A stretch of DNA of 64,000 nt from a bacterium. Its GTDB lineage: Bacteria > Patescibacteriota > Patescibacteriia > SG8-24. This document shows, one piece after another, positions 45,848-64,000 of this stretch. Where the stretch lies: positions 225 to 64,224 of the forward strand of contig JAKAKZ010000004.1 of assembly GCA_021824285.1 (NCBI GenBank), written 5' to 3'. The translations under genes were made by a program, and so were the position numbers. The notes under the pieces are model-generated. The model was not told where the DNA came from. It did not search any database and was given only the letters and a program-made list of their open reading frames with translations. Each line of letters starts with the position of its first letter. Position 1 is the first letter of the stretch.

Positions 45848-45901
45848 ATGCGTACGCTCCGCCGCTTCTTACATCCGCTGCCGGTCGGCGTCAAATCAAG
45901 C

Positions 45902-47797: not shown

Positions 47798-47800
47798 ACG

Positions 47801-48502
47801 TCAGATTTCGGTACCGGAATCGGTGACCCGGAGCTTGCCGGGGTCCTGGATCTTCTGCGTGTCGTAGGAATCAGGATTGTAGACGCGGTAATACAGCTCG
47901 ATGAGGCCCTGGGTGTCGAGCGTCACGGCCGACAGGCCCATGCTGCGGAGCGAGCCGACCATGCGGTCGGCGCGGGTCATGAGATCGCCGCGCTGGCGCT
48001 GGAAGCGCTCCTCGGCCAGACGCACCGCGGCGCCGGGCATGAAAGCGGCCTGCAGGCGCTCGAAGAAGCTCTTCTGCCGGTCGGAAAGCGGATTGTACTG
48101 CACGACGACGAAAAACTGCTTCTGCATGATCTGGCCGAGCGACACGAGTTCCTGCACGAAGGCGCGATAGTCGGCGATCTGCACCTTGAGCAGCTCGTTG
48201 GACTGGGACTTTTCCTGCTCGCGCAGGCGATCAATGTACTTGTCGATGTTCAGGCGCCGCGACTGCACGACAATCTGCAGCGGAAACTCCAGCGAGTTCA
48301 GAAAGGCGACGTACTGCGCGATGATGGCGTTCTGCTCGTCTTCCGACTTGAGCGCAAAATTAATGGAGGACACGAGCATCACGGCGCGCATGGTACCGTC
48401 CTTGAGCACCACCACGCCCTCCTTGATTTCGGCGATGTCCAAGTAGCGCTGGGTGGCAGCGCCCGGTTTCGTGCCGGCAAGTTGCGGTGACTGCATGTCC
48501 AT
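47801..48502 (-). CDS. VirB4 N-terminal region (233 aa), in the same reading frame as the ATPase ORF and separated from it only by TGA plus one codon
   Basis: The block KDGTMRAVMLVSSINFALKSEDEQNAIIAQYVAFLNSLEFPLQIVVQ resembles the N-terminus of Gram-positive conjugative VirB4 ATPases. The stop at 47801-47803 is in frame with the ATG at 47795-47797. Confidence 0.55.
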   Translation of the reverse strand: MDMQSPQLAGTKPGAATQRYLDIAEIKEGVVVLKDGTMRAVMLVSSINFALKSEDEQNAIIAQYVAFLNSLEFPLQIVVQSRRLNIDKYIDRLREQEKSQSNELLKVQIADYRAFVQELVSLGQIMQKQFFVVVQYNPLSDRQKSFFERLQAAFMPGAAVRLAEERFQRQRGDLMTRADRMVGSLRSMGLSAVTLDTQGLIELYYRVYNPDSYDTQKIQDPGKLRVTDSGTEI

Positions 48503-48503
48503 A

Positions 48504-48929
48504 TCACTCTTCGGGGTTGAACACGCCGCCGGTGTTTACGACGAGCGACAGCTCGGCGAGTTTGGACGCGGCCAGGGCCTCCTTCACGATCTTGGGCTTG
48601 GGCGGCGGCGGTGGTGTCTCGCGGACGAAAGCCAGGACTTCGGCGTCGGTCGGTTCCTTATTCCAGACGCGCAATCCGGGCCGACGCGTGGTGAGAATCA
48701 GGTTGAGGACGAAATAATGGAAGGCCTGGCCGTTAATGCGCGTGAAGGCGAAAACGCTGAAGAGTATGAAGGTCGGGATACCGACGAGCAGGAACAGCGC
48801 GAAATCGAACATCTTGTAATACGCGAACTCCAGGCCCAGCATGGCCAATTCAATAAGGAACTGACGGGCCGTCAGCGGACCAAGAATCTTGTCCTCGGTA
48901 TCGATGAATTGGGGAACGGCGTATTTCAT
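48504..48929 (-). CDS. VirB3/PrgI/TcpE-like small 2-TM protein
   Basis: 141 aa with two adjacent TM helices after EDKILGPLTARQFL and a Pro-rich tail. It sits immediately upstream of VirB4, as in Gram-positive T4SS operons. Confidence 0.4.
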   Translation of the reverse strand: MKYAVPQFIDTEDKILGPLTARQFLIELAMLGLEFAYYKMFDFALFLLVGIPTFILFSVFAFTRINGQAFHYFVLNLILTTRRPGLRVWNKEPTDAEVLAFVRETPPPPPKPKIVKEALAASKLAELSLVVNTGGVFNPEE

Positions 48930-49052
48930 CGGCTGGTCTCTACCTTACGTACATTTTTAACGCACAAAACCACGGCTATGAGGACCGTTTTAGCCTATTT
49001 TTAGGTTTATTTTAGGCTAATCAAGTATACCACGACCGGGGTGTGGACATCA

Positions 49053-51135: not shown

Positions 51136-54100
51136 CTAGCGACCGAGCTTCCGTTCGATGGCGTCGAGCAGGCGGGTGACTTGGGACTTGTCCGATTGGG
51201 ATGAATCCTTGAGCTTGTCGACCAGACCCTCGAGCGCCGAGGTCTGATCAGCGCCGGCATCGTTGATCGCCTCAATCAGCTTGTCGAAATTCTCGGGGGT
51301 GGGCCGGACACTGACATCATCCAGCGCATCTTTCACGGCTCCAGAAACGGATTCGGCGACGCCGGAGAAGGCCCGCTCGATCTCCTTCTTGTCGATCCAG
51401 TCGCGGCCGCCGCGACCGCCCGACGAATCAGAACCGTAGGACCTTGGCGCTTCCGTCGGCCGGGCACCCGGACCGCCCATCTCTTTGAGCCGCGCGCTGG
51501 CGGCCTTCAGGTCTTCAGTGGCTTGCCGCAAGGCTTCGGTTAGTGCTTCTAGTGTCTGCGGATTGGCACCGCCAGTCTTGGCTTTGTCATATTCCTGCTG
51601 GGCCTGCTGGGCCTTATCACCGGCCTTCTTCACCACATCCTGCTGCATACCCGCCTCGGTGGCGTCGAACTTGGGCATCTTGTAGCCGCGCCGGGCAAGA
51701 ATCTCCTCGATCTTTCCGATATTGTCGGCGGCTTCCTGACGCTCCTTATCGATCCGTTCCAGATCGCGTTTCTTCTGAAGTTCACCGCCGTTATAGTCGA
51801 AACTCGGCGTCGCCTGGATGCTGTCGCGCTCCGCGCCGAGCGAGAGGACTTTCGACTTCGCCTCGTCAGCATTCTTGAAGGCGTCCTGCGTTTCGCGCTC
51901 GACGCGCTTACGGTCCTTGACCCCGGACTCCCCGCCTTTCTCGGACACGATCTGCATCACCGGATTATTGATGGAGCGGCTCAAGTCGCGGTTGGCCTCG
52001 GCCCAGCCGCCTTTGATGGCGTCGGTTACCGCTTTGAGAAGCGCCGACTCGTTGGCCGATGCGGTGCCGCTCGCGGACTTCTCGGCCAAGCCGAGCAGGG
52101 CACCGCCTTTCATGCCGTCGATCAGCGCCTGCATGGCCTCCGTCGGCTCCCCGTCCTTGGTCAAGGACGATGCGTCAATCTTGGAAAGGGCCTCCGGGCC
52201 GTTGGACTTCACGAATTCCTGAAACGCAGCCTTGCCGAATTCGCTGCCGAACTGGCCTCCGGCGCCAAGGTCGAAGGCCTTGGCCGCACCGGCGGCATCT
52301 TCAGCCGTGCGGGCCACGGCCTGCCGCGCGTGCAGCGATTCCTCGGGGTGCTCGGCTATGTACTTCTCGTTCTCCTCGCGGTAGGCCTTTTTCTGCTTGC
52401 CTTCCAGCTTGGATTCGACGCGGTCGGCGTCATCCCGGAGGGCCACGTCATTGGCGTATTTGCGGATCTGCGCCTCGGTAAAGTCCTTGGGCTGCTGTTT
52501 GCCCTCACGCACCTCGCGGGCCATCTTGGAAGAGAGCTCCTGCAGCTTGTCCTCGAGAGTCTCCCCTTCTTTCAGGGCTGCCGGATCAAACGCCTCATCC
52601 GGGAAGTTCTTCTTGGCTGCCTCAACCGCGTCATCGACGGTTTTCTTGTCGGCGCCAGCTTCCTTCATGCGGCGGATGACCTCATGCGCGCCGCCGGCGT
52701 CATGGACTTTGGCGTTGCGCTTCTCCAGGGCCTGCTTGAGCGCGGCCACGCGTTCCACCTCGGTGAATTCCGCGGCGCGGCCGGTGAGGATGGCCTCGAT
52801 GCTGTCTTTGCTGAGCTCCTTCTGGGCCTTGGCGTAGATGCCGGCCTGACCTTCCTTGCCGGTCTGCTGAAGCTGACGACCGATGCGCCGGCCTTCAGCT
52901 GCGGCCTCTTGGCCGGATTTCACGATGCCGGCGCCGAGACGGCCGCCGGTGACGCCCTGGACAGCGCGGCCGGCTGCCTGACGCAGGCCGCCACGGAGCA
53001 ACGGCGTGACCCCCTCGCGGGCCTTACCGATTTTCTCGGTGTACTGCGCCGTAGTCAGGGCGATGCGCTCCTTGTAGCGGTCATCGCCGGCCTTCATCAT
53101 GGCGCCGACGGCACCGCGCGCGCCTTCCACGCGCTGACGCAGACCGGTCCGCTTGTATATCGCGCCGAGGGCTCCGCCGACGACGGCACCAGGCGCGAGC
53201 TTCTTGGCCCCCGGCAGGCCGCCGCCGAAGCCGCCGCCGCTAAGCTGCTGCGCGAAATCCACGCCCAGATACATGATGGCCAGCGCCATGATGAAACTGA
53301 GCAACGAATCCATTTTCATGAAGTTCGTCCGGAAGACAGCGTCCGCTCCCGATTCCGCATTGAACTGCAGCTGCTTGACGGTGGCCAACGACAGCCAGAG
53401 GAAAAAAGCCAGCACCGGACCGGTGAGGATCTGGGACTGGAGGTTGGACCACCACTTGCCATAGTAGGACTGCGTAGCCTTGAAGGGCATGCCGCGCATG
53501 GCGAAGGCCAGAGGCGAAAAGATGACCACGCCCCAAAGAACGACGATGCGCTTGAGGATGAAGAGCGTCATGATGAGGATGACGCCGCAGGCCGCGAGCA
53601 GGAACAGGCAGGTCGCGAAATAGGTCAGGAACATCGTAAAGGTAGTCTGGGCAGCGGAGAGAGTCAGTCCGGTGCTGTCCGGGCTCATGACGTTCATCTG
53701 CGTGGTGTTCAGCGACGTGATGAGGTTCTGTGCGGCCGCGCCCTTGAAGCCGTTCACGAAAGTCAGCATGACCACCTGACCGATATCGATCAGCACACCG
53801 ACGAAAGTCCGCGAAAAATTCACGAGAATCGCCATGATCAGCAGACGCGAGAGCTTCTTCCCCTTATAGCTGTATTCGTCCATGCCGAGAATCGTCGCGA
53901 ATGCCATCACAAGCATGCTGACCACGATGAGCATGTTGGCCATGTCACGCACGACGAGCCAGCCGGCGGTGACGACGGGATTGTTCACGAAGCTGTTGTA
54001 CTGGATGAAGAAAATCAGCAGTTCGATAAGCAGCGACAGGATCTGGCCGATGGCGAAGGCCAAGGCCTCGAAAACCCAGTAGATGAAGCTCTGGATGAAA

Positions 54101-54384
54101 CCCTGCTCTGTCTGCGCCGGCGGCTTTTTTTCATCGGCGGCGGTATTCGAGGCCGGGGGTGTCGTGGCCGATCCTTGACCTGATCCGCCAGCGGTCTGTG
54201 CGAGCTGGACCGTGCGCACCGCGGACAGGTGGTTCCCGGCGGCCAGTGCCGGACGGGCAAAGTGCGGCAGGACCGAAATCAAAACGCCAAAAACCGCCAC
54301 AGCGGCGATCATCCGCAATGCAGCGTGGCCCGAGGCGCGATGCCGGTTCTGATGGCGCGTGGCTTCGGGTTGGAAAAACAGCAT
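51136..54384 (-). CDS. VirB6/TrbL-like polytopic membrane protein with about 650-aa charged coiled-coil C-terminal extension
   Basis: 1082 aa. The N-terminal 420 aa carry a signal-like segment plus 7-8 TM helices in the TrbL/VirB6 pattern. The C-terminal half is Lys/Glu/Ala-rich. Confidence 0.6.
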   Translation of the reverse strand: MLFFQPEATRHQNRHRASGHAALRMIAAVAVFGVLISVLPHFARPALAAGNHLSAVRTVQLAQTAGGSGQGSATTPPASNTAADEKKPPAQTEQGFIQSFIYWVFEALAFAIGQILSLLIELLIFFIQYNSFVNNPVVTAGWLVVRDMANMLIVVSMLVMAFATILGMDEYSYKGKKLSRLLIMAILVNFSRTFVGVLIDIGQVVMLTFVNGFKGAAAQNLITSLNTTQMNVMSPDSTGLTLSAAQTTFTMFLTYFATCLFLLAACGVILIMTLFILKRIVVLWGVVIFSPLAFAMRGMPFKATQSYYGKWWSNLQSQILTGPVLAFFLWLSLATVKQLQFNAESGADAVFRTNFMKMDSLLSFIMALAIMYLGVDFAQQLSGGGFGGGLPGAKKLAPGAVVGGALGAIYKRTGLRQRVEGARGAVGAMMKAGDDRYKERIALTTAQYTEKIGKAREGVTPLLRGGLRQAAGRAVQGVTGGRLGAGIVKSGQEAAAEGRRIGRQLQQTGKEGQAGIYAKAQKELSKDSIEAILTGRAAEFTEVERVAALKQALEKRNAKVHDAGGAHEVIRRMKEAGADKKTVDDAVEAAKKNFPDEAFDPAALKEGETLEDKLQELSSKMAREVREGKQQPKDFTEAQIRKYANDVALRDDADRVESKLEGKQKKAYREENEKYIAEHPEESLHARQAVARTAEDAAGAAKAFDLGAGGQFGSEFGKAAFQEFVKSNGPEALSKIDASSLTKDGEPTEAMQALIDGMKGGALLGLAEKSASGTASANESALLKAVTDAIKGGWAEANRDLSRSINNPVMQIVSEKGGESGVKDRKRVERETQDAFKNADEAKSKVLSLGAERDSIQATPSFDYNGGELQKKRDLERIDKERQEAADNIGKIEEILARRGYKMPKFDATEAGMQQDVVKKAGDKAQQAQQEYDKAKTGGANPQTLEALTEALRQATEDLKAASARLKEMGGPGARPTEAPRSYGSDSSGGRGGRDWIDKKEIERAFSGVAESVSGAVKDALDDVSVRPTPENFDKLIEAINDAGADQTSALEGLVDKLKDSSQSDKSQVTRLLDAIERKLGR

Positions 54385-54540: not shown

Positions 54541-54578
54541 GGGGACTGTCCCTTTTGCGGCAAAAAGGGACTGTCCCC
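54541..54578. promoter_or_regulatory. two copies of the GGGGACTGTCCC palindrome arranged as cccTTTTgcggcAAAAAggg, upstream of the VirB6-like gene
   Basis: 54541-54552 and 54567-54578. The same 12-mer occurs at 41560-41571 upstream of recG. Confidence 0.4.
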
Positions 54579-54587
54579 TAACTGAAA

Positions 54588-54615
54588 CCGCCGTCCTTAT
54601 CTGGACGGCGGTTTT
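54588..54615. terminator. strong hairpin ccgccgtcc-ttatct-ggacggcgg followed by ttttctt, directly after the giant gene stop
   Basis: The T-tract is better on the plus strand than on the minus strand. Confidence 0.5.
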
Positions 54616-54626
54616 CTTGGTGCTTA

Positions 54627-57600
54627 TTAAGGTTTGACGACGATTTCTCCGGCGAACGTGTCCCAGGCCGTGTTGTAGCTGTCGCAGACGCCGCCGCCGG
54701 CGTTGGTTCCGGTATCCGGTCCGACGCAGAGCCCGTTCGGGTTGGCGACCGTCTTGTTGCCGGCGGAATCCAGCAGCAAGCCGCTGCAGGAACCGCTGCA
54801 CACGCCCCAATAATCCGTGAACTGGACGCGCGGCTTGAAGTGACACATGGAGCCGTCCTGGCACGGATACTTGTTGCCGTCGCAGGCCGGGAAGGTGGAG
54901 AGGTCGGAAGCCGTGCAGGTGTAGAGGATGGATTCGCGGAAGTACCGCGTGACACAGGACTCCGGCGTCTTGCCCCACTCGGTCGTGCCGGCGCAGATTT
55001 CCGTCGGGGCGGCACCAGAGGTGGCCGGCTTGATCACGCCGCGCTGATTCTTGTAGAGGCCCTTGGTCTCCACGTAGTCGGCGCTCACGATATTGGGATT
55101 TTTGTAAGTCGCGCCGTTGGCGTCGAAGCGCTTCTTGACGAGCGGCATGTGGTCCTTATCCGCGTAGCCGTAATAGGTGATGTTAGCCAAGTAGGAGCCG
55201 CCGCCGGCCGTATTGCCCACCTGGCCGCTCACGAAGCCGTCGACGGTCATCGCATTGGTCCCATCCTCTTCGCAGGCCCAATCGTTGACCGACGGATAGC
55301 AGCGCTGGCGCGTCGTGGCGGTAGAGCCCGAACCGATGATTTCCGGCGCAGTCAGGGCGGCGGCGACTTTCGGCTGGCTGTTCGCGCCGGCATCGGCCAT
55401 GACCGCAGTCATGCCCCAACCGGTGCCGGACGACAGACCGTAGGCCGTGCCGGTAAGTCCGTAGCGGCCATAGGACTGCACGAACATCTTCTGGAGCTCC
55501 GCTTGGGTATAAGTGTTGCCGGCGGCGGCGAAACCGACGTCGAACCGCTTGACCGGAGGATTGGTTCCCATCGGGTCGGTCTTCACGAAGCCCTTATTGT
55601 TGTTGTTACCGGCGCCGCCGCGCAGGGCCGACCAGAGCGGCAGACCGGAGGTGTACGGTGCGTCGCTGCCGAAGACACCGTTTGCCGCCGGCGTGGCCGG
55701 GAACACGTGCCCGTAGGGGGCGATGTCCTGGGAAGTCTTATTGTCGGCATCCTCCGGATTGTAGATATCTACCGTAACTCCATAAGGGATGCCCAAGTCG
55801 TTGGCCAGCTTCATCTTGAACTGGTTGGTCTTGACGATGGCCGGGGTGTTGGTCGAGGAGCTGCCGCCCAAATCCGTGTATTCGCGGCACTGCTCGCGGA
55901 GATAGACGGTAACAGTGCCCTCGCGGTTCACGGTCACGCTGTGGTTCCGATCAAGAATTCCGGTGCCGGACGCAAAGATGTCGTGACCGACGCACCAGAG
56001 ACTGCCGATGCTGCTTAGGGTGCCGTTGTCCCAGTTGGCCTGCGCATACATGCAGCCCTTGTCCTTGTCGATGGCGTCAGAGGCCCCGGTGGTGTTCGCC
56101 TGATCGCCGCACTTAAAGCCAGTGGCGTCATAATGCGGCGCGCAGAACGGACTGATGCCGCTACTGGTCCACTCGCCGGTAGACAGGAATTCCGTAGCTG
56201 GCGGCTGCGGCGGGTCCGCGCTCCCCTTCCAGCCAACCTCGAATTTCCAGCCGTTCGATGGCGTCAGCCAGAAATCAGTTATGGCGTTATCGGTAAAGTC
56301 GCGGCTGTAATGCTTAACCGAAATTTTGATGGCCGCGACATCATTGATGCTCAAGCCCACGGAACTGACATCAGAATTGTGGACGTCTTTTGTCGTCCAA
56401 TTGGCCGCAAGCCGCTTTTCGCCCCAAATCCAGGCTGACCAGAACATGTCGTTCCACAACCATGATGGAGGGGCACCGCCAGGATTGTTCTCCAGTTCAT
56501 ACAGGCCGACCTGATACTCATCGGTACACTGATAGTCAGGCGAATTGCTTGTGTAGGCGTCAATACCGCCCGCGAGCATACCGATGGTGCATCCGACAAG
56601 CGGAACCGTGGCGCATGCAATCGCCATTTCAGACGCGATTCTTGCCCAGTTAGGGCAATTCCTAACGGTTGTAGACCAATGATCGGTCCAGATGATGTTT
56701 GAATACTGCCCGGTCGGCCAGCCCTTGGACGCGTACTTGCCCGGCACGTTGACCTTATCGGAGCAGTAGAGCAGCTTGTCGACTCCGGCATCGATGGCCG
56801 GATCGAAACCGGCTTCCGGATACTGGTTATAGATGTCCGGCTGGCCGGAGAGCTGGTCCACCGGGAGCCACTGCAGGCAATGGTACTGGTCCGGCGTGCC
56901 GTTGATGCGCGTGCCGTAGTCCTTGTCGATGCAGATGCCGGTCCAGCCGGTGGCGTTCCGGGCCTTGGTCTTGGCGGAGCAGGAGCCGGTGCTCGCGTCC
57001 GCGCCGGTCGCGGCGCATGACGCGTTGCTCGTGCAGGGCTGTCCGAGTTTGGTGGCGTCGCCCATGGTGCAGACGCTGTTATCCATGGCGGTGCCGACCG
57101 GCTTGAAGACCGAGAAGCCGGGACCGTAATCGGCGCGGCTGTAGGAGCAGTCGCAGGCGTTGTTCAGGCCGGACGAATCGCTGTCCAAGCAGAGATTGGC
57201 GCTCTTGAAATTGGAGATCGGCTGGCTCCGGTTGGAGTAGGTGCCGCCCAAAAGCACAGTCTTGCCGTAGGGCGAGTCGGATTCCGGATAGCCGCGGCAC
57301 ATCATGGAAGCGCCGGCGCTCCGGGTGTCGGCCTTCATGGCCGGACCGCCGAAGAGGTCGAAGGCACAGACGCCGTTCTTGGCCTGGGCGTTGGATTTGA
57401 TGCAGCGGCCGTGGTTCTTGTTCGGATCGGGATCGTCGGTGATGACGCACTGGCTGTCGTTGGTGCAGGTCGTGATTATGCCGCCGACGTTGGAGTCGCG
57501 GACGATCGCGGCAACGTAATCCGGACTGCTGTCCTTGTCCGTGAGCGACAGCAGGGCCTCCGGCGGATAGGCGTTCGGGACGGTGTAGCCGGAAAATTCC

Positions 57601-60600
57601 GGTCCGCGATAGCTGATATCGCGGTCCGCGTACTTGTCCACGGTGAAACGGCCGTCCTCGGGCGAGCGCACGGTGAAGTCCACGCACTTAACGCCGCTCG
57701 CGGTCATCTGATACTGCTGGCAGAGCGCCATGGCGACGCATTGCGACTTCCACTTGGTGGAGCTGTTCTCGTCGTAGACCGGCACGGTCTGGCGGCACTC
57801 CAGCCACTCGGAGCACTCGCGGTCGCGGCGGACCTTCAGAATGACGTTGCCGTCGTTCTTCGGCGGTGCGGCGCTGATGTCACGGCAGACCGCTCCCTCG
57901 CACTTCTCGCCATAGCCGGTGCACTGGCTGTCCGCCGTGCAGAACTTGCCGGATTTGGTGCAGGTCTTCGGTCCGCAATCCGCATCCGCGACGCAGCTGC
58001 TGCCCCAAATATCAGTGCCATTCGAGGCGGTCCGGAAGCAGCGGTGGTCGCAGGCCGGATCGCGGACATTCGCGGCCGCCTCGCAGTTCACCGTGGGCAC
58101 GCGGTCGCTGTTCTTGTTGAGATCCTCGTGGCGATAGGTCGCATAAGAGGAGATGCGCTTCACCGGGACACTGGATTGGTTGAAGATCACGCAACCCTGT
58201 TTGAGCGAAGCCGTGCCGGAACAGGAAGACTTGTCCAACTTGTTGTTGTCCATGTAGTAATAGGCCGTACCCTCCGGGTTGGTGTTCGAGGTCTCGAGCG
58301 GATCGATGAACTCCTCGCACCGATTGAACTGTTCGGGGCACTTGCCGACCCAGCCCTGGTAACCGCAGCCGGTCTGGCCGAGCGCCACGCTGCAGACCGG
58401 CGTGCCGGTCTCGGGGCAGGAGCAGCCAAGCGGTTTATTGCAGGCCGCCGCAAGATTGCAGGAGACGTCGCCCTGCTTGGCGATCGGATAGAGAATGCCG
58501 TTCTGCAGCTCGCCCGGGGCGCAGGGAATCAGGGCCCCACCCGAACTCTTGCGGAACCAGCCGTTGCGCTTGGCGCCATCCGGCATGATGATGTCCTCCT
58601 TGTATTCGCAGATCTTGTCGCCTGGATCCTTGAAGAACTTGAGACCGTCCGCGGAGTTGTACTCCTTGCAGCCGAGCGCGGCCTCGGTGCAGAGCTGCTG
58701 GTCGTACTTGGCTGGGTTGTTCTTGATGGCGACATTGTCCCAGCGGTCAATGACGCCGGCGCCGAGCGAGAGCGTACAGGAGGTCTCGCCTTTCTTCATC
58801 AGGCAGAAATTGCCGGTGGCCGTATCCGTGCACTTGCAGGCGTCGTATTTCTGCGAGGTGCAGCCGTAAGCGCCGAAGGAGCAGGAGTCCACGGTGGTGC
58901 AGACGGCCTGCTGGCCGGATTCGTAGTGCAGGCATTGCTTCTCATAGACCTGGTGGGACTGGCCCATGACGCGACAGCCCACAGCCTCGGCTTTGCACTG
59001 GTATTTGACGTCCGCGGCGAGATACAGGCGCTCATCAGCAGCCACGCGGACGCGGTCGGGCGTGGAGAGGAGACATTTATTCGCGGCACCGCAGTCCGTA
59101 TCCGCACTGCAGAGCTTGTTCGCGTCGTTGGAGCACCGGCCGTCCGGCACGGAGACGTCCCAGCCGTCATAGTGGAAGCGGCAGGAGGTTTCGCCGTTCG
59201 GTACGCGGCAGACGTCTTTCAGCACGGCGGCCGGATTGCCGGAAGTCGGATCTTTGACCTTATAATCGCATGGCGTACCCAGGCCGGTCGCCGGCGAAGA
59301 CAGGCTGCAGACCGCGTTCCAGGTCTCGGAGTACGGGTTCTGCAGGGTGTTCTGTGTGTTGACGTAGGTGCCGCAGCCCACGGCGCGGTCGCGGCAGAGC
59401 TGGCTGAACTGGCGCAGGGTGGAAACCTGGCCCTTGGTGTCGCGGTATTCGCGGCAGCCGAGCATCTGGAGCGGGGCCGGCGTGCCGTCCGGCGCGGTGT
59501 TGCAGGAAGCCGGCGTCTGCCAGGAATTCGCGACCGCGTAGATGTTCTCCTGGACTTCGCGCATCACGAAATTGTCGATGTAGGCTGCCTGACCGGAGGG
59601 GTGCAGGGAAAGCGAGGTCAGGGCCGCATTCAGGAAGATGGGGCCGACGGAATAGAGCTTCCAAGAAGGCGATAGCGTGATTGTCGGCAGGGACGGCGTT
59701 GCCGCGGCGGCCGGCACGACGGAGATGGAGAGATTGCCGCTGCCCCGCGCCCAGAAGCTGAAGGAGTAGGAGCGGCCGGATTTGGCGAGGCCCGCAAGAG
59801 AGCGGCTGGCGGTGGCGTTCGCCGTGATGACGAGCGAGTGTCCGCCGACGACCACCGATTCCGCAGACTGCTTGGCGTCGGCCGCGGGCGTCCAGCCGGC
59901 CGTGCCGGATTCGAAATCATCCAGCGCCACCTGCCGGACGTTGCCGGCGGTGTTGCCCTTGTAGGCGCGGCAGCCGGCCAAGGCCGCGGAGCAGGAATCG
60001 CTGCCGGATGCGGTGAAGCGGTAAACGCAGGTCAGGGTGGTTTCGTTCCAGACGCCGCGGCTGGCTTCGCAGTCGAGTTTCGACTCGGCGATGTCGGTCG
60101 TGCGCGCGGTGATGCGGTTGTAGCGGCAGTCCGCGGTCGCGAGCACGGTCTGCGACAGGCGGCGGTAATGGCGGTTGCCGTCCTGGTCATAGAACTCGCG
60201 ACAGTCGAAGTCGCCCTGCTCGATGTCGGCGCGGGAACAGTAGCCGGTCGTATCCTGGTCGTTGCAGGTGAAGGCCTGCGTCACGGCGCTGCGCGTGAGC
60301 GCGGTGCATGGCGCAAACCCGGCATTGGCGCAGCTGCCTGGCGTGGTGCAGACATCGGAAGCGTTGTGGCCCGCGCTCTGGTCCGGAACCGTCGCGGCGG
60401 TCTTGCGCATGCTCCACTCCTTGATTTCGTAGCCTTGGGTGTCTGATCCTTCCCATGTATAGAAGGTCTGCGTTTCCGGATCCGTCGGCAGCTGGCACTG
60501 CTGCACTCTCTTATAATATGAAACCTGTTCGTTCTCGATATCCGTGAACTCGGAACAGCCGACGTCCGCGGCCGAACAGGCCTGGGCGGTCTTAGGGATG

Positions 60601-63434
60601 AAGTAGACCGGGAACTTGTCGCGCTCAAACGCGGTTGCCTCCTGCTTGAAGACGTCGTAACCGACGCACTCGGCCGGACAGCGATCACCATCGTTGACGA
60701 TGGCCGGGACGGCCGGGTCGCCGTTGGCCGGCGTATAGCGGTCACAGCCGACTTCGGTCTCACGGCAGATGGCAGCGTAGTTGGCGCAGGCAGCCGGATC
60801 ATTGCCCTCGCCTTTGCAGCCGAGTTCCGGCGGAGGAAGTTTGAGGTTGGCGTACTGCAGGTCGCCGCCGTACTGCTCATGGAAATCCGTCAGATTCCCC
60901 TCTTCCACCTGAACGTCGTCGGCCAGCAGGTAATCGTTGCCGTTGTTCACGAGACTCAACGTGGCGCTCGCCACGCGGTCGTCTGACACCATGAAGGAGC
61001 AGGAGAGGCGGTATTTGGTGAGCGCGTTGGCCGCGGTCAGGCGCACGCCGCCGCCGGTGGCGGTGCAGGTCGTGCCGCCCGGGGAATCCGTAAAGATTAG
61101 GGAGGCCGGGACGGTCAACGAAGTGCCTTGTTTGTCGGAGAACACCAGGCTGACCCTGGCATCGATGCCGGTCTTGCCGGTCTGAGTCAGGAAAACGGCG
61201 GAAACAGTGGTCGTCTTGAAAGGACGGACCGCGATGCCGACCTGGGACACGGATTGGGTGCGCTCGACCGTCATGGCATGGCTGCCGTGCGAAATCGGCT
61301 GGGGTGCGGTCGAGACGTAGCCGGAAGCGCCGGTCGCGGACACGTTGGCCATCGGCCACCAGAAGTTCGCGTGCTGGGCCGCACTGCCGTTGTTGTCGAA
61401 ATCCTCTATGGTCTCGAAACCGGGGTTGCGCACGAGGTTCAGCGACGAGCCGGCCGGCAGCATGGCCACGGCGCTGCAGCCGTCGTCCGCCGCCTGGCAT
61501 TTTTCGGCCTGGCGGTTCAGGTACAGCTGCGGCGCGGAATTCCAGGCCTGGTCCACGCTGGCAGGAGCGGCGGCGGTGTTGAGCGACGTGGAGTAGGCGG
61601 TGCAGCCCACGTTATCGCTGCCGCAGATGCCGGCATCGACCGTATTCAGCAGATAACTCACCTGTTTCTTCGTGGAAGTATCCGTGAGCGTGCGGCAGGA
61701 GGCGAACTGCGCCGGACACCGGTCGCCGTCGAAGCGCCAGACGTTCTTCTCCTGGGTGCAGTAGCCGTAGGAATCGCCGATGCAGTTGCCGGCATCGTCC
61801 TGCTTAAGGCAGGTGCGCTCATCGACGCACTCCTCGTTACGCTTCGGAGAATCCGGGCTCAACAGCGTCGGACCGAAGGCCTGTGCCTTGCACACCACCG
61901 GCGGTATCTTCACGACCCAGTCAGGATCGATCAGATGACAGTACGGGGTCGTCTGGCTCCAATGGCCGTTCTGATCGCATTCGGTGAAACGGGCGATGGC
62001 CGCACTGAGAGTAATCGCCTTGCTGGGATTGGTCTGGGCCTGCTGTGCGGCGAGTTCCCAACCGATCGGCAGGACACGGAGAGCGCGGAGTTTCTTGAGG
62101 TTAGCCTCGCAATAGCCGCTCGCGTAACATGTCCGGCTGCTGTCGGCCAGCGGATCGGTCGCGGGGATGAGTTTCCAGTCTCCGTGCAGGGCGCCGGTGG
62201 CGATCAGTTCCCGGACGGTCATCGGCTTGATGCGGGATTCGGTCAAGGCCTGCGCCAATTTGGCGTCGATGCTGCAGTTGTCCGGAGTGCGGCCCTGCGT
62301 TTCGCCGGGACAAATGGACATGTCGGCGACCGGGTCGATGGCCCCCGGTTCCTTGGGCTTGGCGACCGCATACTGCGGCGCGATGGCCTGGGCCACGGAT
62401 TGCGGCGTGGCAGAGACAGGATTGCTCAAGAAGTCGTAGGGCAGGTTGGGGTCAGCGGCGATGAGCATCTCGTTCGACATCATGCCGTTGACCATCTTGT
62501 TCCAGAGACGCGAAGCGAGCACCTGGGCGAAAGTGGCGGCCGCGCCGATGAGCGCGCCGACGATGCGGTTGCCTGACACCTGCGCGTTCGTGGACTGTTG
62601 GCCGGCTTCGGCCGTGCCCTTGTCCTTGGCGTCCTTGGCGTTCTCGGCTTCCTGCTTGACTTGGGAGGCCGGCGTCTTCACGCGCCCGGAGACCATATCG
62701 TAGATGCCGGAAAAGCCACCGCCAGCCGTGGCCTCATACTGCCGCTTGGCGGTATCGAGCTCCTGCGACTTCAGCCCCTGGGATTTGAGCGCCTCCTGGG
62801 CGGACATGAAAGTATCCGCCGGAGACTGGCCGGGGATGAACTGCAGGGAGACGTTCTTCATCAGCTCGCTGGGCTTCAGCGTCGAGGCTGCGCTTTCCCA
62901 GTTCTTGATGACATTATTGAAATCGCACTTCGGCTTCGGCGGCTGGTATTCGTCCATGATGCCGAGACCGACGTTGAGTTTGAACTTGAAATCAATGCCC
63001 TTCGGTTCGCAGAGGTTCAGACCGAGCTTCTCCAGACCGGATTCCTGGGAGAAGGTGCCGATGGCCTCGCCGAGGCCGCCCATGAGCGCGTCCTTCATGC
63101 CGGATTCGAACGACTTGCTGTTCCAGCAGGGCTTCTGGCCCGGGCAGTCGCTCGTGAGCGCCACGGCCGCCTGATAGGCAATCTGGTTGATGGTGTAGGA
63201 AAAGAGGTTGCTGGCGGCGGAGGTGATGGCCGGGACCGCGAACTCCTTGATGGTGTCGATGATCGTGTCCTTGGTCTTCATGACGTTCCCCGGAACGTCC
63301 ACGACCGGCAGGTCGGCGCGGGCCGGCTGCGGCGAGAGGAGGATGAACGAGGCCGAAGACACCGTCAGGGTGATGCCGAACAGCAGCGCGGCCAGCGCTT
63401 TCTTGAGCCGGTGGATGTAGCTGGAGGACTTCAT
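54627..63434 (-). CDS. giant secreted cysteine-rich surface protein (2935 aa)
   Basis: A single uninterrupted ORF with an N-terminal signal/anchor (LAALLFGITLTVSSASFILL). Cys is very abundant throughout as CxnC pairs. There are no internal TM segments. The ATG is preceded by a spacer and the gene lies immediately upstream of the VirB6-like gene. Confidence 0.85.
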   Translation of the reverse strand: MKSSSYIHRLKKALAALLFGITLTVSSASFILLSPQPARADLPVVDVPGNVMKTKDTIIDTIKEFAVPAITSAASNLFSYTINQIAYQAAVALTSDCPGQKPCWNSKSFESGMKDALMGGLGEAIGTFSQESGLEKLGLNLCEPKGIDFKFKLNVGLGIMDEYQPPKPKCDFNNVIKNWESAASTLKPSELMKNVSLQFIPGQSPADTFMSAQEALKSQGLKSQELDTAKRQYEATAGGGFSGIYDMVSGRVKTPASQVKQEAENAKDAKDKGTAEAGQQSTNAQVSGNRIVGALIGAAATFAQVLASRLWNKMVNGMMSNEMLIAADPNLPYDFLSNPVSATPQSVAQAIAPQYAVAKPKEPGAIDPVADMSICPGETQGRTPDNCSIDAKLAQALTESRIKPMTVRELIATGALHGDWKLIPATDPLADSSRTCYASGYCEANLKKLRALRVLPIGWELAAQQAQTNPSKAITLSAAIARFTECDQNGHWSQTTPYCHLIDPDWVVKIPPVVCKAQAFGPTLLSPDSPKRNEECVDERTCLKQDDAGNCIGDSYGYCTQEKNVWRFDGDRCPAQFASCRTLTDTSTKKQVSYLLNTVDAGICGSDNVGCTAYSTSLNTAAAPASVDQAWNSAPQLYLNRQAEKCQAADDGCSAVAMLPAGSSLNLVRNPGFETIEDFDNNGSAAQHANFWWPMANVSATGASGYVSTAPQPISHGSHAMTVERTQSVSQVGIAVRPFKTTTVSAVFLTQTGKTGIDARVSLVFSDKQGTSLTVPASLIFTDSPGGTTCTATGGGVRLTAANALTKYRLSCSFMVSDDRVASATLSLVNNGNDYLLADDVQVEEGNLTDFHEQYGGDLQYANLKLPPPELGCKGEGNDPAACANYAAICRETEVGCDRYTPANGDPAVPAIVNDGDRCPAECVGYDVFKQEATAFERDKFPVYFIPKTAQACSAADVGCSEFTDIENEQVSYYKRVQQCQLPTDPETQTFYTWEGSDTQGYEIKEWSMRKTAATVPDQSAGHNASDVCTTPGSCANAGFAPCTALTRSAVTQAFTCNDQDTTGYCSRADIEQGDFDCREFYDQDGNRHYRRLSQTVLATADCRYNRITARTTDIAESKLDCEASRGVWNETTLTCVYRFTASGSDSCSAALAGCRAYKGNTAGNVRQVALDDFESGTAGWTPAADAKQSAESVVVGGHSLVITANATASRSLAGLAKSGRSYSFSFWARGSGNLSISVVPAAAATPSLPTITLSPSWKLYSVGPIFLNAALTSLSLHPSGQAAYIDNFVMREVQENIYAVANSWQTPASCNTAPDGTPAPLQMLGCREYRDTKGQVSTLRQFSQLCRDRAVGCGTYVNTQNTLQNPYSETWNAVCSLSSPATGLGTPCDYKVKDPTSGNPAAVLKDVCRVPNGETSCRFHYDGWDVSVPDGRCSNDANKLCSADTDCGAANKCLLSTPDRVRVAADERLYLAADVKYQCKAEAVGCRVMGQSHQVYEKQCLHYESGQQAVCTTVDSCSFGAYGCTSQKYDACKCTDTATGNFCLMKKGETSCTLSLGAGVIDRWDNVAIKNNPAKYDQQLCTEAALGCKEYNSADGLKFFKDPGDKICEYKEDIIMPDGAKRNGWFRKSSGGALIPCAPGELQNGILYPIAKQGDVSCNLAAACNKPLGCSCPETGTPVCSVALGQTGCGYQGWVGKCPEQFNRCEEFIDPLETSNTNPEGTAYYYMDNNKLDKSSCSGTASLKQGCVIFNQSSVPVKRISSYATYRHEDLNKNSDRVPTVNCEAAANVRDPACDHRCFRTASNGTDIWGSSCVADADCGPKTCTKSGKFCTADSQCTGYGEKCEGAVCRDISAAPPKNDGNVILKVRRDRECSEWLECRQTVPVYDENSSTKWKSQCVAMALCQQYQMTASGVKCVDFTVRSPEDGRFTVDKYADRDISYRGPEFSGYTVPNAYPPEALLSLTDKDSSPDYVAAIVRDSNVGGIITTCTNDSQCVITDDPDPNKNHGRCIKSNAQAKNGVCAFDLFGGPAMKADTRSAGASMMCRGYPESDSPYGKTVLLGGTYSNRSQPISNFKSANLCLDSDSSGLNNACDCSYSRADYGPGFSVFKPVGTAMDNSVCTMGDATKLGQPCTSNASCAATGADASTGSCSAKTKARNATGWTGICIDKDYGTRINGTPDQYHCLQWLPVDQLSGQPDIYNQYPEAGFDPAIDAGVDKLLYCSDKVNVPGKYASKGWPTGQYSNIIWTDHWSTTVRNCPNWARIASEMAIACATVPLVGCTIGMLAGGIDAYTSNSPDYQCTDEYQVGLYELENNPGGAPPSWLWNDMFWSAWIWGEKRLAANWTTKDVHNSDVSSVGLSINDVAAIKISVKHYSRDFTDNAITDFWLTPSNGWKFEVGWKGSADPPQPPATEFLSTGEWTSSGISPFCAPHYDATGFKCGDQANTTGASDAIDKDKGCMYAQANWDNGTLSSIGSLWCVGHDIFASGTGILDRNHSVTVNREGTVTVYLREQCREYTDLGGSSSTNTPAIVKTNQFKMKLANDLGIPYGVTVDIYNPEDADNKTSQDIAPYGHVFPATPAANGVFGSDAPYTSGLPLWSALRGGAGNNNNKGFVKTDPMGTNPPVKRFDVGFAAAGNTYTQAELQKMFVQSYGRYGLTGTAYGLSSGTGWGMTAVMADAGANSQPKVAAALTAPEIIGSGSTATTRQRCYPSVNDWACEEDGTNAMTVDGFVSGQVGNTAGGGSYLANITYYGYADKDHMPLVKKRFDANGATYKNPNIVSADYVETKGLYKNQRGVIKPATSGAAPTEICAGTTEWGKTPESCVTRYFRESILYTCTASDLSTFPACDGNKYPCQDGSMCHFKPRVQFTDYWGVCSGSCSGLLLDSAGNKTVANPNGLCVGPDTGTNAGGGVCDSYNTAWDTFAGEIVVKP

Positions 63435-63548
63435 CTCCGTGACGGTTTACGGATGAATGATGGCGACGGTCGGACCGGATTTAACCGGCATTATCGCGCT
63501 GGCTTATTGTAGCACTGATTCTGTCGGCTGTCCTGTGCTTTTTTGAGC

Positions 63549-64000
63549 TTAATTTCCGGCGGAAAGCTCGCCAATCGTGTCCTTAAGCAGGCGGCGCAGC
63601 GTGGCGTCGTCGTTCTTCGCGATGGCTTGCGGCGGCATACCGATGCTTTCCAGGAAGGAGCGCAGGTCGGCCGAACTCATCTGGTCGACCTTCTGGGCGA
63701 TGTCCGCGTCGCTCATCTTGCTGATGTCGCCGAAAGCTTTGGTGAAGGCCCGGTAGACGGCCGCGTCGGCGGACGATGGCACGGCAGTTCCCGTGCCCTG
63801 CGCCGGGGGGCTAGCCGGAACTGGGGCCGGGGCGGCGGGAGCGGGGGCGGCTACGGCGCGGCACGTCTTGCCCGACGGACAGGTCGGATCGCCGCCGCTC
63901 CTGACCTCTACCCCATCCGGAATGCCATCGGAATCGGAATCGTCGTTGTAGGCGCTCGTATGATAGATGTACATCTCGTCGTAATCGGAAAGACCGTCGC
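63549..64000 (-). CDS. partial secreted acidic protein with Dx[DS]xDGxxD (thrombospondin-type-3-like Ca-binding) repeats. The 5' end lies beyond the window.
   Basis: The frame stays open to the window edge (..DGLSDYDEMYIYHTSAYNDDSDSDGIPDGVE..). Pro/Ala-rich linker. Confidence 0.5.
   Translation of the reverse strand, partial: DGLSDYDEMYIYHTSAYNDDSDSDGIPDGVEVRSGGDPTCPSGKTCRAVAAPAPAAPAPVPASPPAQGTGTAVPSSADAAVYRAFTKAFGDISKMSDADIAQKVDQMSSADLRSFLESIGMPPQAIAKNDDATLRRLLKDTIGELSAGN

What the first reader, a model, noticed from the sequence alone, without database searches (positions are those of the whole stretch)
54627..63434. 2935-aa cysteine-rich secreted protein with no recognisable domains
This is a single 8.8-kb ORF with an N-terminal signal anchor and no internal TM helices. 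Cysteines occur as closely spaced pairs along the whole length, which implies extensive disulfide bonding outside the cell. That is consistent with the DsbA-like gene at 35982. I could not recognise adhesin, RHS, cadherin or Ig-like signatures by eye. Giant proteins next to T4SS-like genes are a recurring but functionally unexplained feature of CPR genomes.
Basis: partly seen in the sequence, partly recalled or inferred. Interest (0 to 1): 0.65.

Follow-up and report, generated by a model that had tools for sequence, protein, structure and literature searches.

The report
Giant disulfide-stapled surface protein beside T4SS
This is one real 2,935-residue gene for a secreted, disulfide-rich protein with two sugar-binding-type domains; it belongs to a large undescribed family found only in ultrasmall Patescibacteria, usually beside their type IV secretion genes, and is a good candidate for the part that touches the host cell.

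Summary
The ORF is real: 54627-63434 on the minus strand, 2,935 aa, 130 Cys. It is not an assembly fusion. More than 1,000 clusters at 50% identity, from 269 species-level genomes, encode colinear 2,600-3,800-aa relatives. Where their records carry a meaningful label, it is Uhrbacteria, Magasanikbacteria or Patescibacteria.

All relatives start with a signal peptide that has a conserved PxPAxA|Q cleavage motif. Most Cys are 90-100% conserved. Cys-x6/7-Cys spacings are three times over chance. There is no CxxC, and Cys counts are even in 48 of 56 relatives, so structural disulfides are likely.

"No recognisable domains" is only partly right. Two beta-sandwich modules resemble CBM4/9/16/22 carbohydrate-binding modules. 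The rest matches nothing in Pfam, NCBIfam, PHROGs or PDB.

A small membrane-anchored protein with TSP3 repeats sits upstream in 43 of 48 loci. A co-oriented polytopic VirB6-like gene, followed by PrgI, TrsD and VirB4, lies within 10 kb downstream in 34 of 50. Between close relatives the CBM-like modules and a 450-aa region diverge fastest, while the N-terminal domain and Cys scaffold stay conserved.

Best reading: a surface, glycan-binding host-attachment protein, probably working with the Patescibacterial T4SS. Function is inferred, not shown.

The parts
54627..63434 (-). Whole gene, 2,935 codons plus stop. A second in-frame TAA follows at 54624-54626.
   Evidence: Identical protein P0001.
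63315..63434 (-). aa 1-40: Sec signal peptide. It has a K/R-rich n-region, a 21-aa hydrophobic core, then ARA|D.
   Evidence: The PxPAxA|Q motif is conserved in 56 relatives. Cleavage is inferred from the -3/-1 rule.
62325..63314 (-). aa 41-370: N-terminal domain, predicted helical at low confidence. C142 and C170 are invariant, and an amphipathic helix recurs at about aa 280-310. This is the best-conserved part between close relatives (76-98% identity).
   Evidence: No Pfam or PDB match.
61875..62312 (-). aa 375-520: small alpha/beta domain stapled by conserved Cys pairs. It contains one of the best-conserved stretches of the family (NLKKLRAARIIPIGWE..., with G458, E460, P504 and W506 invariant).
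   Evidence: pLDDT 80-90 over aa 380-510. No family match.
61455..61874 (-). aa 521-660: Cys-hairpin block I. It holds the invariant pairs C573/C580, C604/C611 and C646/C653. Motif: C-x4-5-GC-x2-[YF].
60855..61454 (-). aa 661-860: CBM-like beta-sandwich 1.
   Evidence: pLDDT 75-93. Foldseek against PDB gives CBM16, CBM61, CBM22 and CBM4, best E 5e-6, TM normalised to target 0.55-0.76.
59943..60854 (-). aa 861-1164: Cys-hairpin block II. The pairs C890/897, C953/960 and C1148/1155 are invariant.
59535..59942 (-). aa 1165-1300: CBM-like beta-sandwich 2.
   Evidence: Pfam CBM_4_9 at E 0.001-0.004, 17.8-19.9 bits against a 25.9-bit cut-off. hhalign to module 1: 88% for aa 672-753 vs 1173-1234, and 96% for aa 822-900 vs 1271-1357. 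PF02018 is precomputed on 21 of 56 relatives.
56685..59534 (-). aa 1301-2250: Cys-rich block III. It has further invariant Cx6C/Cx5C pairs at 1347/1354, 1480/1487, 1582/1589, 1699/1706, 1874/1880 and 1899/1905. Lineage-specific Cys-rich insertions lie between them.
55335..56684 (-). aa 2251-2700: variable region. Mean pairwise identity is 0.20, 65% is unalignable, and its length ranges from 294 to 1,148 aa across relatives.
   Evidence: The AF2 model is of low confidence here.
54630..55334 (-). aa 2701-2935: conserved Cys-containing beta-rich C-terminal domain. It ends in the family motif PW-x-x-F-x-G-x-I-x-V.
   Evidence: pLDDT 80-93 over aa ~2687-2887. No significant fold or family match.
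63506..63534 (-). Sigma-70-like promoter match (AGGACA-17-TACAAT with TG), between the upstream gene and the giant's ATG.
   Evidence: This is a consensus match only; shuffles give a mean of 1.9 such matches for this region.
54585..54611 (-). Hairpin CCGCCGTCC-AGATAA-GGACGGCGG followed by TTT, 16 nt after the stop codon. It is a possible terminator.
   Evidence: Read directly from the sequence. The terminator scan did not call it because the T run is short.
63549..64000 (-). Partner gene, cut by the window edge. It encodes a small protein with TSP3-type Ca-binding repeats, a CPxGxxC pair and a helical C-terminal domain. Full-length relatives are 220-280 aa and carry an N-terminal TM anchor.
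   Evidence: It lies upstream of the giant in 43 of 48 loci.
51136..54384 (-). Context: 1,082-aa polytopic membrane protein with about 7-9 hydrophobic segments in the first 375 aa. It is VirB6-like by topology and position only.
   Evidence: No Pfam or NCBIfam hit. A homologue lies co-oriented downstream of the giant in 34 of 50 loci.
44490..51110 (-). Context: the rest of the T4SS-type cluster. It comprises a 685-aa protein (49053-51110), PrgI/VirB3 (48504-48929), TrsD / VirB4 N-terminal part (47801-48502), the VirB4 ATPase (45902-47797), a 215-aa bitopic protein (45200-45847) and ComF-like (44490-45245).
35982..36671 (+). Context: membrane-anchored DsbA-like thiol-disulfide oxidoreductase with a CGAC motif.

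Best explanation
**Shown**
The gene encodes one Sec-exported protein of about 310 kDa. It belongs to a large, colinear family that appears restricted to Patescibacteria, in Uhrbacteria- and Magasanikbacteria-type lineages. From N to C terminus it has:
- a helical N-terminal domain;
- a long scaffold of conserved Cys-x6/7-Cys hairpin modules;
- two CBM-like beta-sandwiches;
- a hypervariable region of about 450 aa;
- a conserved beta-rich C-terminal domain.

**Inferred**
- After export, the membrane-anchored DsbA-like enzyme oxidises the roughly 65 Cys pairs. This would give a rigid, protease-resistant extracellular stalk.
- The conserved N-terminal domain holds the protein at the cell surface. 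The likely partner is the co-conserved small membrane-anchored TSP3-repeat protein encoded just upstream, and/or the polytopic VirB6-like protein encoded downstream.
- The fast-evolving CBM-like modules and the variable region bind surface glycans or other envelope structures of the host cell.
- In that role it would be the attachment arm of the monoderm-type T4SS of these bacteria, for which no adhesin has been identified. This makes it analogous, not homologous, to PrgB in enterococcal conjugation systems.
For: - **Real gene and large family.** There are 56 full-length relatives at 25-44% identity. The search of 50%-identity representatives found 1,229 hits, 1,056 of them at E<=1e-30, with the query tile at the same position in almost all. 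269 species genomes encode a relative.
- **Export.** The signal peptide with its AxA motif is conserved.
- **Disulfides.** Most Cys are 90-100% conserved. Cx6-7C is enriched, 31 observed against 9.1 +/- 2.8. CxxC is absent. Cys counts are even in 48 of 56 relatives, p = 5e-8. A DsbA-like enzyme with TM anchor and CGAC is encoded in the window.
- **Lectin-type modules.** Foldseek gives E 5e-6 to CBM16/61/22/4 with TMt up to 0.76. Pfam CBM_4_9 hits are weak. hhalign shows a duplicated CBM-plus-hairpin unit.
- **Divergence pattern typical of a ligand-binding surface protein.** In pairs 61-87% identical, the N-terminal domain is 76-98% identical. CBM1 and CBM2 drop to 46-67% in most pairs. The variable region drops to 31-63% in most pairs, with large indels.
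- **Gene linkage.** The partner gene is upstream in 43 of 48 loci. The VirB6-like gene is co-oriented downstream in 34 of 50, and PrgI, TrsD or VirB4 is also seen within the flank in 20.
- **Literature.** The Patescibacterial T4SS is related to monoderm conjugation machinery, lacks a relaxase, and "no adhesins, such as PrgB, were detected". ABY1 loci carry comF, recG and radA, as this window does (PMC12102498). In a Saccharibacterium, the T4SS and several polysaccharide-binding surface proteins are essential for epibiotic growth (PMC10633639).
Against: - No experiment bears on this family, so every functional step is inferred.
- The T4SS link rests on neighbourhood alone. In 16 of 50 loci no VirB6-like gene lies within 10 kb.
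- Where linkage exists, unrelated genes such as serS or a transposase-like gene are often inserted. Adjacency may therefore reflect conserved chromosome order; rsmA and prfA upstream are also syntenic.
- In this window the giant is followed by a hairpin and a 242-nt spacer, so it may be transcribed separately.
- The CBM hits are below Pfam's cut-off in this protein. Sugar binding is untested.
- About 85% of the protein has no fold assignment. The two AF2 models are poor overall (mean pLDDT 58 and 54), so an unrecognised enzymatic domain cannot be excluded.
- No membrane or wall anchor has been demonstrated for the mature protein.
Confidence: 0.5

Rival explanations
1. It is a general envelope or surface-scaffold protein, S-layer-like or a glycan-capturing coat. 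It is a core vertically inherited gene of these lineages with no functional tie to the T4SS, and the adjacency is only conserved chromosome order.
For: - The gene pair (small TSP3 protein plus giant) sits in a housekeeping context, groES/EL-prfA-tsaC-rsmA, in distant relatives.
- The T4SS is absent from the 10-kb flank in 16 of 50 loci, and is often separated by serS, a transposase-like gene or lipoprotein genes.
- In the window a hairpin and a 242-nt spacer follow the giant.
- Every one of the 80 retrieved loci came from a different contig.
Against: - All 34 loci counted as linked have the VirB6-like gene downstream on the same strand; in some the spacing is very short, for example 29 nt in L005.
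- Typical S-layer proteins are much smaller, Cys-poor, and carry SLH or similar anchors. None was found here.
- Hypervariable lectin-type modules fit specific recognition better than a coat does.
Confidence: 0.25
2. It is a secreted enzyme or lytic factor that acts on the host envelope, for example a polysaccharide or cell-wall hydrolase. The CBM-like modules would target an as yet unrecognised catalytic domain, such as the highly conserved aa 375-520 domain with invariant E460 and D538.
For: - CBM4/9/16/22-type modules are most often appended to glycoside hydrolases (established knowledge of CAZy families; hits).
- One of the best-conserved stretches of the family contains invariant acidic residues.
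- Giant proteins of predatory bacteria have been linked to cell-wall degradation (bioRxiv 10.1101/2023.11.21.568195).
Against: - No hydrolase, peptidase or lysozyme-like family was detected. This holds for single-sequence searches and for scans of 12 or 26 family members against Pfam, and for profile searches against PDB.
- The listed Foldseek hits were all CBM-type.
- Invariant residues can equally well be structural.
Confidence: 0.12
3. It is a T4SS substrate, or a polymorphic toxin of RHS or teneurin type, delivered to the host cell.
For: It lies next to a T4SS that lacks a relaxase and might export proteins (PMC10633639; PMC12102498). It is very large and has a variable region.
Against: - It has a classical Sec signal peptide, so it need not use the T4SS.
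- No RHS/YD, toxin or immunity signatures were found.
- The extreme C-terminus is conserved. The variable part is internal, which is the opposite of polymorphic toxins.
- A heavily disulfide-bonded protein is unlikely to be threaded through a T4SS channel (inference).
Confidence: 0.05
4. It is an artefact: several genes merged by mis-assembly, or a spurious long ORF in GC-rich DNA.
For: The window has 62% G+C and contains long shadow ORFs, for example a 1,154-aa ORF antisense to dnaE.
Against: Hundreds of independent assemblies encode colinear full-length relatives with conserved Cys and the same domain order.
Confidence: 0.01

Closest known systems
PrgB / aggregation substance and related LPxTG adhesins of Gram-positive conjugative T4SSs (pCF10)
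   Same: A large Sec-exported surface protein encoded at the head of a monoderm-type (MPF-FATA-like) T4SS cluster. Its expected role is to bind polymers on the partner cell's envelope and so hold the two cells together.
   Different: There is no sequence or fold relationship. It has no polymer-adhesin (GbpC-type) domain and no LPxTG sortase signal. It is more than twice as long. It is disulfide-stapled, whereas PrgB-type adhesins are Cys-poor. PMC12102498 found no PrgB homologues in Patescibacteria.
CBM4/9/16/22/61 carbohydrate-binding modules (Pfam CBM_4_9, galactose-binding-like beta-sandwich)
   Same: Two modules of the giant have this fold. The first is supported by Foldseek (E 5e-6, TMt up to 0.76). 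The second is supported by weak Pfam hits and by profile similarity to the first.
   Different: Scores in this protein are below Pfam's gathering cut-off. No catalytic partner domain is recognisable. Sugar binding is untested. The modules make up under 12% of the protein.
Helicobacter pylori CagY (from my own knowledge, not tested here)
   Same: A very large, surface-exposed, T4SS-associated protein. Its repeat region carries regularly spaced Cys, and its variable repeats modulate host interaction.
   Different: CagY ends in a VirB10/TrbI domain and belongs to a diderm T4SS. No VirB10 or TrbI match was found in this protein. Its repeats are ancient and diverged rather than recombining DNA repeats.
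Giant surface proteins of other ultrasmall episymbionts or predators: the SPEARE protein of Nanohaloarchaeum (from my own knowledge) and the Omnitrophota giant proteins next to secretion genes (bioRxiv 10.1101/2023.11.21.568195)
   Same: The concept is shared: one very large secreted multidomain protein, encoded beside a secretion or pilus system in a host-dependent microbe, and proposed to mediate attachment to or attack on the host envelope.
   Different: The families and domain sets are unrelated. Those proteins carry recognisable protease, nuclease or hydrolase domains, whereas this one has none detectable. No paper in the searched library describes this family.

Membership tests
CBM_4_9-type carbohydrate-binding module (PF02018) | Sequence match to the Pfam model at or above the gathering score of 25.9 bits | tested here: not met
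   17.8 bits (whole protein) and 19.9 bits (tile) at aa 1172-1237, E 0.001-0.004. PF02018 is precomputed on 21 of 56 relatives.
CBM_4_9-type carbohydrate-binding module (PF02018) | Beta-sandwich jelly-roll fold superposable on solved CBM4/9/16/22 structures | tested here: met
   For aa ~660-850 (pLDDT 75-93), Foldseek against PDB gives 2zey/2zew (CBM16), 2xom (CBM61), 4xuo (CBM22) and 1k42 (CBM4). Best E is 5e-6 and TMt is 0.55-0.76. Module 2 is linked only through hhalign (88-96%).
CBM_4_9-type carbohydrate-binding module (PF02018) | Binds a carbohydrate ligand | not testable with these tools
   Needs glycan arrays or pull-downs with recombinant modules.
PrgB / antigen I/II-type T4SS adhesin | Polymer adhesin (GbpC-type) domain | tested here: not met
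   No such Pfam or NCBIfam hit at E<=0.1.
PrgB / antigen I/II-type T4SS adhesin | C-terminal LPxTG sortase signal followed by a TM segment | tested here: not met
   The C-terminus is ...AWDTFAGEIVVKP, with no LPxTG and no hydrophobic tail. The family consensus is PWxxFxGxIxV.
PrgB / antigen I/II-type T4SS adhesin | Encoded with a monoderm-type T4SS | tested here: met
   VirB4 of the CD1110 family at E 3e-97, TrsD, and PrgI at E 5e-7 lie downstream on the same strand. This recurs in relatives.
RHS/YD or other polymorphic toxin | RHS/YD repeats, and a variable extreme C-terminal toxin domain with an adjacent immunity gene | tested here: not met
   No RHS or toxin families were found. The extreme C-terminus is conserved and the variable part is internal.
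VirB10-type giant T4SS protein (CagY-like) or extended VirB6 | VirB10/TrbI domain, or a polytopic VirB6 membrane domain | tested here: not met
   No TrbI or VirB6 hits. There is no conserved internal TM segment.
S-layer protein | SLH or another wall-anchoring module, with Cys-poor self-assembling domains | tested here: not met
   No SLH hit. Cys content is 4.4%. Lattice formation cannot be tested here.
Sec-exported, DsbA-dependent disulfide-bonded extracellular protein (a class, not a family) | Signal peptide; conserved, paired Cys without redox or metal-binding CxxC motifs; an extracytoplasmic thiol oxidase in the genome | tested here: met
   The disulfides themselves have not been observed.

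The most novel reading that the evidence does not exclude
The giant protein is the missing extracellular, host-contacting arm of the Patescibacterial T4SS in Uhrbacteria- and Magasanikbacteria-type lineages. It would be a disulfide-stapled stalk docked through its conserved N-terminal domain to the small TSP3-repeat membrane protein and to the VirB6-like translocon. Its hypervariable lectin modules and variable region would determine which host cell is recognised. Its engagement would then position, or license, T4SS-mediated transfer or uptake of macromolecules at the contact site.
Probability: 0.25. Interest if true: 0.8.

Novelty: new variant of a known kind. Interest (0 to 1): 0.58.

Why it matters
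- **An open question about the T4SS.** Patescibacteria are a large share of bacterial diversity and live attached to other microbes. How they recognise and hold their hosts is known only for a few Saccharibacteria. Their T4SS is essential in the one species tested, but its function and its extracellular parts are unknown. The published survey found no adhesin.
- **What this family offers.** It is large, with over 1,000 clusters at 50% identity and 269 species genomes. It is strongly conserved and single-gene. Its predicted location and divergence pattern fit a host-recognition factor. It usually sits at the head of the T4SS neighbourhood.
- **What becomes testable.** Localisation by cryo-ET or immunolabelling in enrichment cultures. 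Glycan binding by the CBM-like modules. Complex prediction with the TSP3-repeat partner and the VirB6-like protein.
- **A structural gap.** About 85% of the protein, including a repeated Cx6C hairpin module, has no structural or family assignment.

Tried and rejected
- **Family scans of the whole protein.** Pfam gave only a sub-threshold CBM_4_9 hit. NCBIfam and PHROGs gave nothing.
- **Family scans of tiles.** Pfam at E<=1 again gave only CBM_4_9.
- **Scans of family members.** Twelve members of the aa 41-520 alignment and 26 members of the C-terminal alignment were scanned at E<=5. No family recurred. A PKD-like look of the C-terminal motif (..VDFGDG..H.Y.C) seen by eye therefore has no support.
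- **PDB by sequence.** The whole protein and two profiles gave nothing meaningful.
- **Fold searches.**
  - The N-terminal model returned only CBM-type hits.
  - The C-terminal model gave no hit at E<=1e-3 in PDB or BFVD, only weak Ig-like sandwiches.
- **AF2 models.** Both are poor overall (mean pLDDT 58 and 54), so only four segments were interpreted. An alignment in which the tile's tail was smeared across the long rows (A1) was discarded.
- **Explanations considered and rejected.**
  - TM anchor at aa 2270-2288: not conserved.
  - Lipoprotein signal: no lipobox Cys.
  - Sortase anchoring: no LPxTG.
  - RHS or polymorphic toxin.
  - VirB10/CagY-type protein.
  - Assembly fusion.
- **Own contig.** The lookup of the window's own contig failed because the exact product is not on record.
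- **Literature.** Searches found the T4SS papers but nothing on this family.
Full report

The window contains one uninterrupted ORF on the minus strand, 54627-63434, ATG-started and 2,935 aa long. An identical protein is present in NCBI-derived data on a 67.9-kb contig. A near-identical one, with at least one substitution, lies on a 68.3-kb contig.

The protein has 130 Cys, or 4.43%. Neighbouring Cys are 6 or 7 residues apart 31 times. Two thousand shuffles of the mature sequence give 9.1 +/- 2.8, with a maximum of 20. There is no CxxC and no CC. The "closely spaced pairs" are therefore real and non-random.

They are not spread along the whole length, however. Cys-rich blocks alternate with Cys-poor stretches at aa 171-374, 654-789, 1156-1310, 2304-2430 and 2517-2711.

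The N-terminal hydrophobic segment (aa 15-33) is followed by ARA|D. The only other strongly hydrophobic stretch (aa 2270-2288) is not conserved in relatives.

**2. One gene, and a large family**

A word-indexed search found 56 relatives. All are 2,596-3,779 aa long and 25-44% identical. Those with a credible organism name in the source record are called Uhrbacteria, Magasanikbacteria or Patescibacteria; a few carry implausible phylum names.

An exhaustive phmmer search used aa 370-1165 against 1.84 billion 50%-identity representatives. It found 1,229 proteins at E<=1e-3 and 1,056 at E<=1e-30. Most of the 150 listed are about 2,600-3,800 aa long, and some are shorter, probably fragments. The tile falls at about residues 360-1,180 in almost all.

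A scan of one genome per GTDB species found relatives in 269 genomes. Many of those records carry implausible names such as "uncultured Gammaproteobacteria" or "Binatia", which look like placeholder or mis-binned labels.

In a MAFFT alignment of the 56 relatives, most Cys are 90-100% conserved and the order of segments is the same throughout. This rules out an assembly fusion or a spurious GC-rich ORF.

**3. Anatomy**

- **aa 1-40, signal peptide.** All 56 relatives have the motif PxPAxA|Q at the end of the hydrophobic core. By the -3/-1 rule this is a cleavable Sec signal, not an anchor. This is an inference, because no predictor was available.
- **aa 41-370, N-terminal domain.** AF2 models it as long helices at low confidence. 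C142 and C170 are invariant. A recurrent amphipathic helix lies near aa 280-310.
- **aa 375-520, small alpha/beta domain.** It is modelled at pLDDT 80-90. It contains one of the best-conserved stretches of the family, with G458, E460, P504 and W506 invariant; D538 just beyond it is also invariant.
- **Cys-hairpin modules.** The motif is C-x4-5-G-C-x2-[YF], often preceded by an aromatic strand. At least ten Cx6C pairs are invariant or nearly so (573/580, 604/611, 646/653, 890/897, 953/960, 1148/1155, 1347/1354, 1480/1487, 1582/1589, 1699/1706), as are two Cx5C pairs. Profile self-comparison confirms that the modules are repeats.
- **Two beta-sandwiches.**
  - The first (aa ~660-850) has pLDDT 75-93. 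It matches CBM16, CBM61, CBM22 and CBM4 structures, with best E 5e-6 and TM normalised to target of 0.55-0.76.
  - The second (aa ~1165-1300) gives sub-threshold CBM_4_9 hits. It aligns to the first at 88-96% hhalign probability, together with the following hairpin.
- **aa 2251-2700, variable region.** Mean pairwise identity is 0.20, 65% is unalignable, and the length ranges from 294 to 1,148 aa.
- **aa ~2687-2887, C-terminal domain.** It is Cys-containing and beta-rich, with pLDDT 80-93, and ends in PWxxFxGxIxV.

Outside the two sandwiches nothing matches Pfam, NCBIfam, PHROGs, PDB sequences, PDB folds or BFVD folds.

**4. Evidence for extracellular disulfides**

- The Cys are conserved.
- CxxC metal or redox motifs are absent.
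- Cys counts are even in 48 of 56 relatives (binomial p = 5e-8).
- The window encodes a DsbA-like protein with a TM anchor and a CGAC active site.
- Next to that gene lies another Cys-rich exported protein: an M23 peptidase with a weak T4SS-pilin match and 16 Cys.

The disulfides themselves are inferred.

**5. Neighbourhood**

The gene order on the minus strand is:

1. a small gene that runs off the window edge (63549 to beyond 64000);
2. the giant;
3. a 1,082-aa polytopic protein, VirB6-like by topology and position only;
4. a 685-aa protein;
5. PrgI/VirB3 (E 5e-7);
6. a TrsD-like VirB4 N-terminal part;
7. the VirB4 ATPase (CD1110 family, E 3e-97);
8. a 215-aa bitopic protein;
9. ComF.

tRNA genes, recG, radA, the M23/pilin gene and the DsbA-like gene follow further along the window, the last three on the opposite strand. 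This is the arrangement that PMC12102498 reports for class ABY1.

Full-length relatives of the small upstream gene are 220-280 aa. They have an N-terminal TM anchor, two TSP3-type Ca-binding repeats, a CPxGxxC pair and a helical C-terminal domain. Its family is also Patescibacterial, and several members appear to sit on the same contigs as the giants, judged by matching contig lengths.

Across 80 loci from species-representative genomes:

- the small gene is upstream in 43 of 48 informative loci;
- a VirB6-like homologue lies downstream on the same strand within 10 kb in 34 of 50;
- PrgI, TrsD or VirB4 is also visible in 20.

Spacing ranges from under 0.7 kb to 9 kb. Recurrent inserts are an opposite-strand Cys/Asp-rich lipoprotein, serS, a transposase-like gene and a 520-700-aa lipoprotein. 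The link to the small gene is therefore tight. The link to the T4SS is frequent but loose.

In this window a promoter-like site precedes the giant. A 9-bp GC-rich hairpin and a 242-nt spacer follow it, so separate transcription is possible.

**6. How it evolves**

In ten pairs of relatives that are 61-87% identical overall:

- the N-terminal domain (76-98%) and the Cys scaffolds are the most conserved;
- CBM1 and CBM2 fall to 46-67% in most pairs;
- the variable region falls to 31-63% in most pairs, with up to 325 unaligned residues.

A conserved base with fast-changing lectin-type modules is the pattern expected of a surface protein. Its distal parts recognise a changing ligand, and its base contacts a conserved partner.

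**7. Most likely mechanism**

The shown steps are export signal, conserved paired Cys, lectin-type folds, partner-gene linkage, T4SS neighbourhood and the divergence pattern. The inferred steps are these:

- oxidation by the DsbA-like enzyme into a rigid extracellular stalk;
- retention at the surface through the N-terminal domain, bound to the small TSP3-repeat membrane protein and/or the VirB6-like protein;
- binding of host-envelope glycans by the CBM-like modules and the variable region;
- cooperation with the T4SS as its attachment arm.

This works like PrgB-type adhesins of Gram-positive conjugation systems. It is not a member of that family: there is no polymer-adhesin domain, no LPxTG and no homology.

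I put 0.5 on the surface-adhesin reading as a whole. I put about 0.25 on the stronger claim that it is a physical part of the T4SS apparatus.

**8. Rivals**

- A T4SS-independent envelope or coat protein whose adjacency is mere synteny (0.25).
- A secreted lytic enzyme with an unrecognised catalytic core, for which aa 375-520 is the candidate (0.12).
- A T4SS substrate or polymorphic toxin (0.05). The Sec signal, the conserved extreme C-terminus and the heavy disulfide bonding argue against this.
- An artefact (0.01), refuted by the family data.

**9. Novelty**

The Patescibacterial T4SS and its ABY1 gene context are published (PMC12102498, PMC10633639, PMC12857230). Those papers do not discuss this protein, and one states that no adhesin was detected. 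No paper in the searched library describes the family.

It is best classed as a new variant of a known kind: a giant secreted host-interaction protein of a host-dependent microbe. Most of it is structurally unassigned.

The interest score of 0.58 rests on three points:

- the family is large and conserved;
- it is well placed to answer how these bacteria recognise hosts and what the outside of their T4SS looks like;
- its function still rests on inference.

Noticed in passing
window 63549-64000 (-): The gene upstream of the giant is listed as a 141-aa ORF starting at an ATG. In fact the frame stays open to the window edge (…DGLSDYDEMYIYH…). Relatives are 220-280 aa with an N-terminal TM anchor, so the gene is cut by the window.
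   Followed up: yes
window 47801-48502 and 45902-47797 (-): VirB4 is encoded as two genes. A 233-aa TrsD-like / VirB4 N-terminal part is followed by a 631-aa ATPase of the CD1110 family (E 3e-97). The same split is seen in related loci L005 and L006 and is mentioned for Patescibacteria in PMC12102498.
   Followed up: partly
window 49053-51110 (-): This 685-aa protein has no TM segment, no Cys and no family hit. Its best matches are to the second of two separate genes (about 350-460 aa) that occupy this position in relatives, and it matches the first only weakly. It may be a fusion, or one gene may have been lost.
   Followed up: partly
window 36688-38016 (+): This 442-aa exported protein has 16 Cys, a sub-threshold M23 peptidase match and a weak T4SS-pilin match. 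It lies directly after the DsbA-like gene and may be the wall-remodelling or pilin component of the same T4SS.
   Followed up: no
window 54385-54626 (-): After the giant's stop codon comes a second in-frame TAA. A 9-bp GC-rich hairpin follows, and then two copies of the near-palindrome GGGACAGTCCC flanking TTTTTGCCGCAAAA. Their function is unknown; they could be a terminator or a protein-binding site.
   Followed up: partly
window 44179-44242 (-): Rfam reports a fourth, truncated tRNA-like match just at threshold (29.4 against 29 bits). It lies between two tRNA-Ser genes, and ARAGORN does not call it. It may be a tRNA remnant.
   Followed up: no
window 9768-13232 (+) versus 9678-13178 (-): A 1,154-aa ORF lies antisense to dnaE, which has strong Pfam hits on the minus strand. 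It is a shadow ORF typical of 62% G+C DNA. It is a reminder that long ORFs alone are weak evidence in this window.
   Followed up: partly
whole window: G+C is 60-67% throughout, which is high for Patescibacteria. Some related genomes are also GC-rich; record names such as Uhrbacteria RIFOXYB12_FULL_58_10 and Parcubacteria CG1_02_58_44 suggest about 58%.
   Followed up: no
L020, L021, L023, L025, L031, L039, L041, L052, L058, L060, L071, L074, L079; also L001 19912-20577 and L003 18817-19530: In many related loci a 200-290-aa lipoprotein rich in Cys and Asp (MTRF…LxAC…) is encoded on the opposite strand, immediately downstream of the giant. It is absent from this window.
   Followed up: no
loci L008-L087 (record titles) and P0005, P0008: Many public records that carry this Patescibacteria-type gene cluster are labelled "uncultured Gammaproteobacteria", Binatia, Eisenbacteria, Vicinamibacterales or Acutalibacteraceae. 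These are probably placeholder names or mis-binned contigs.
   Followed up: no
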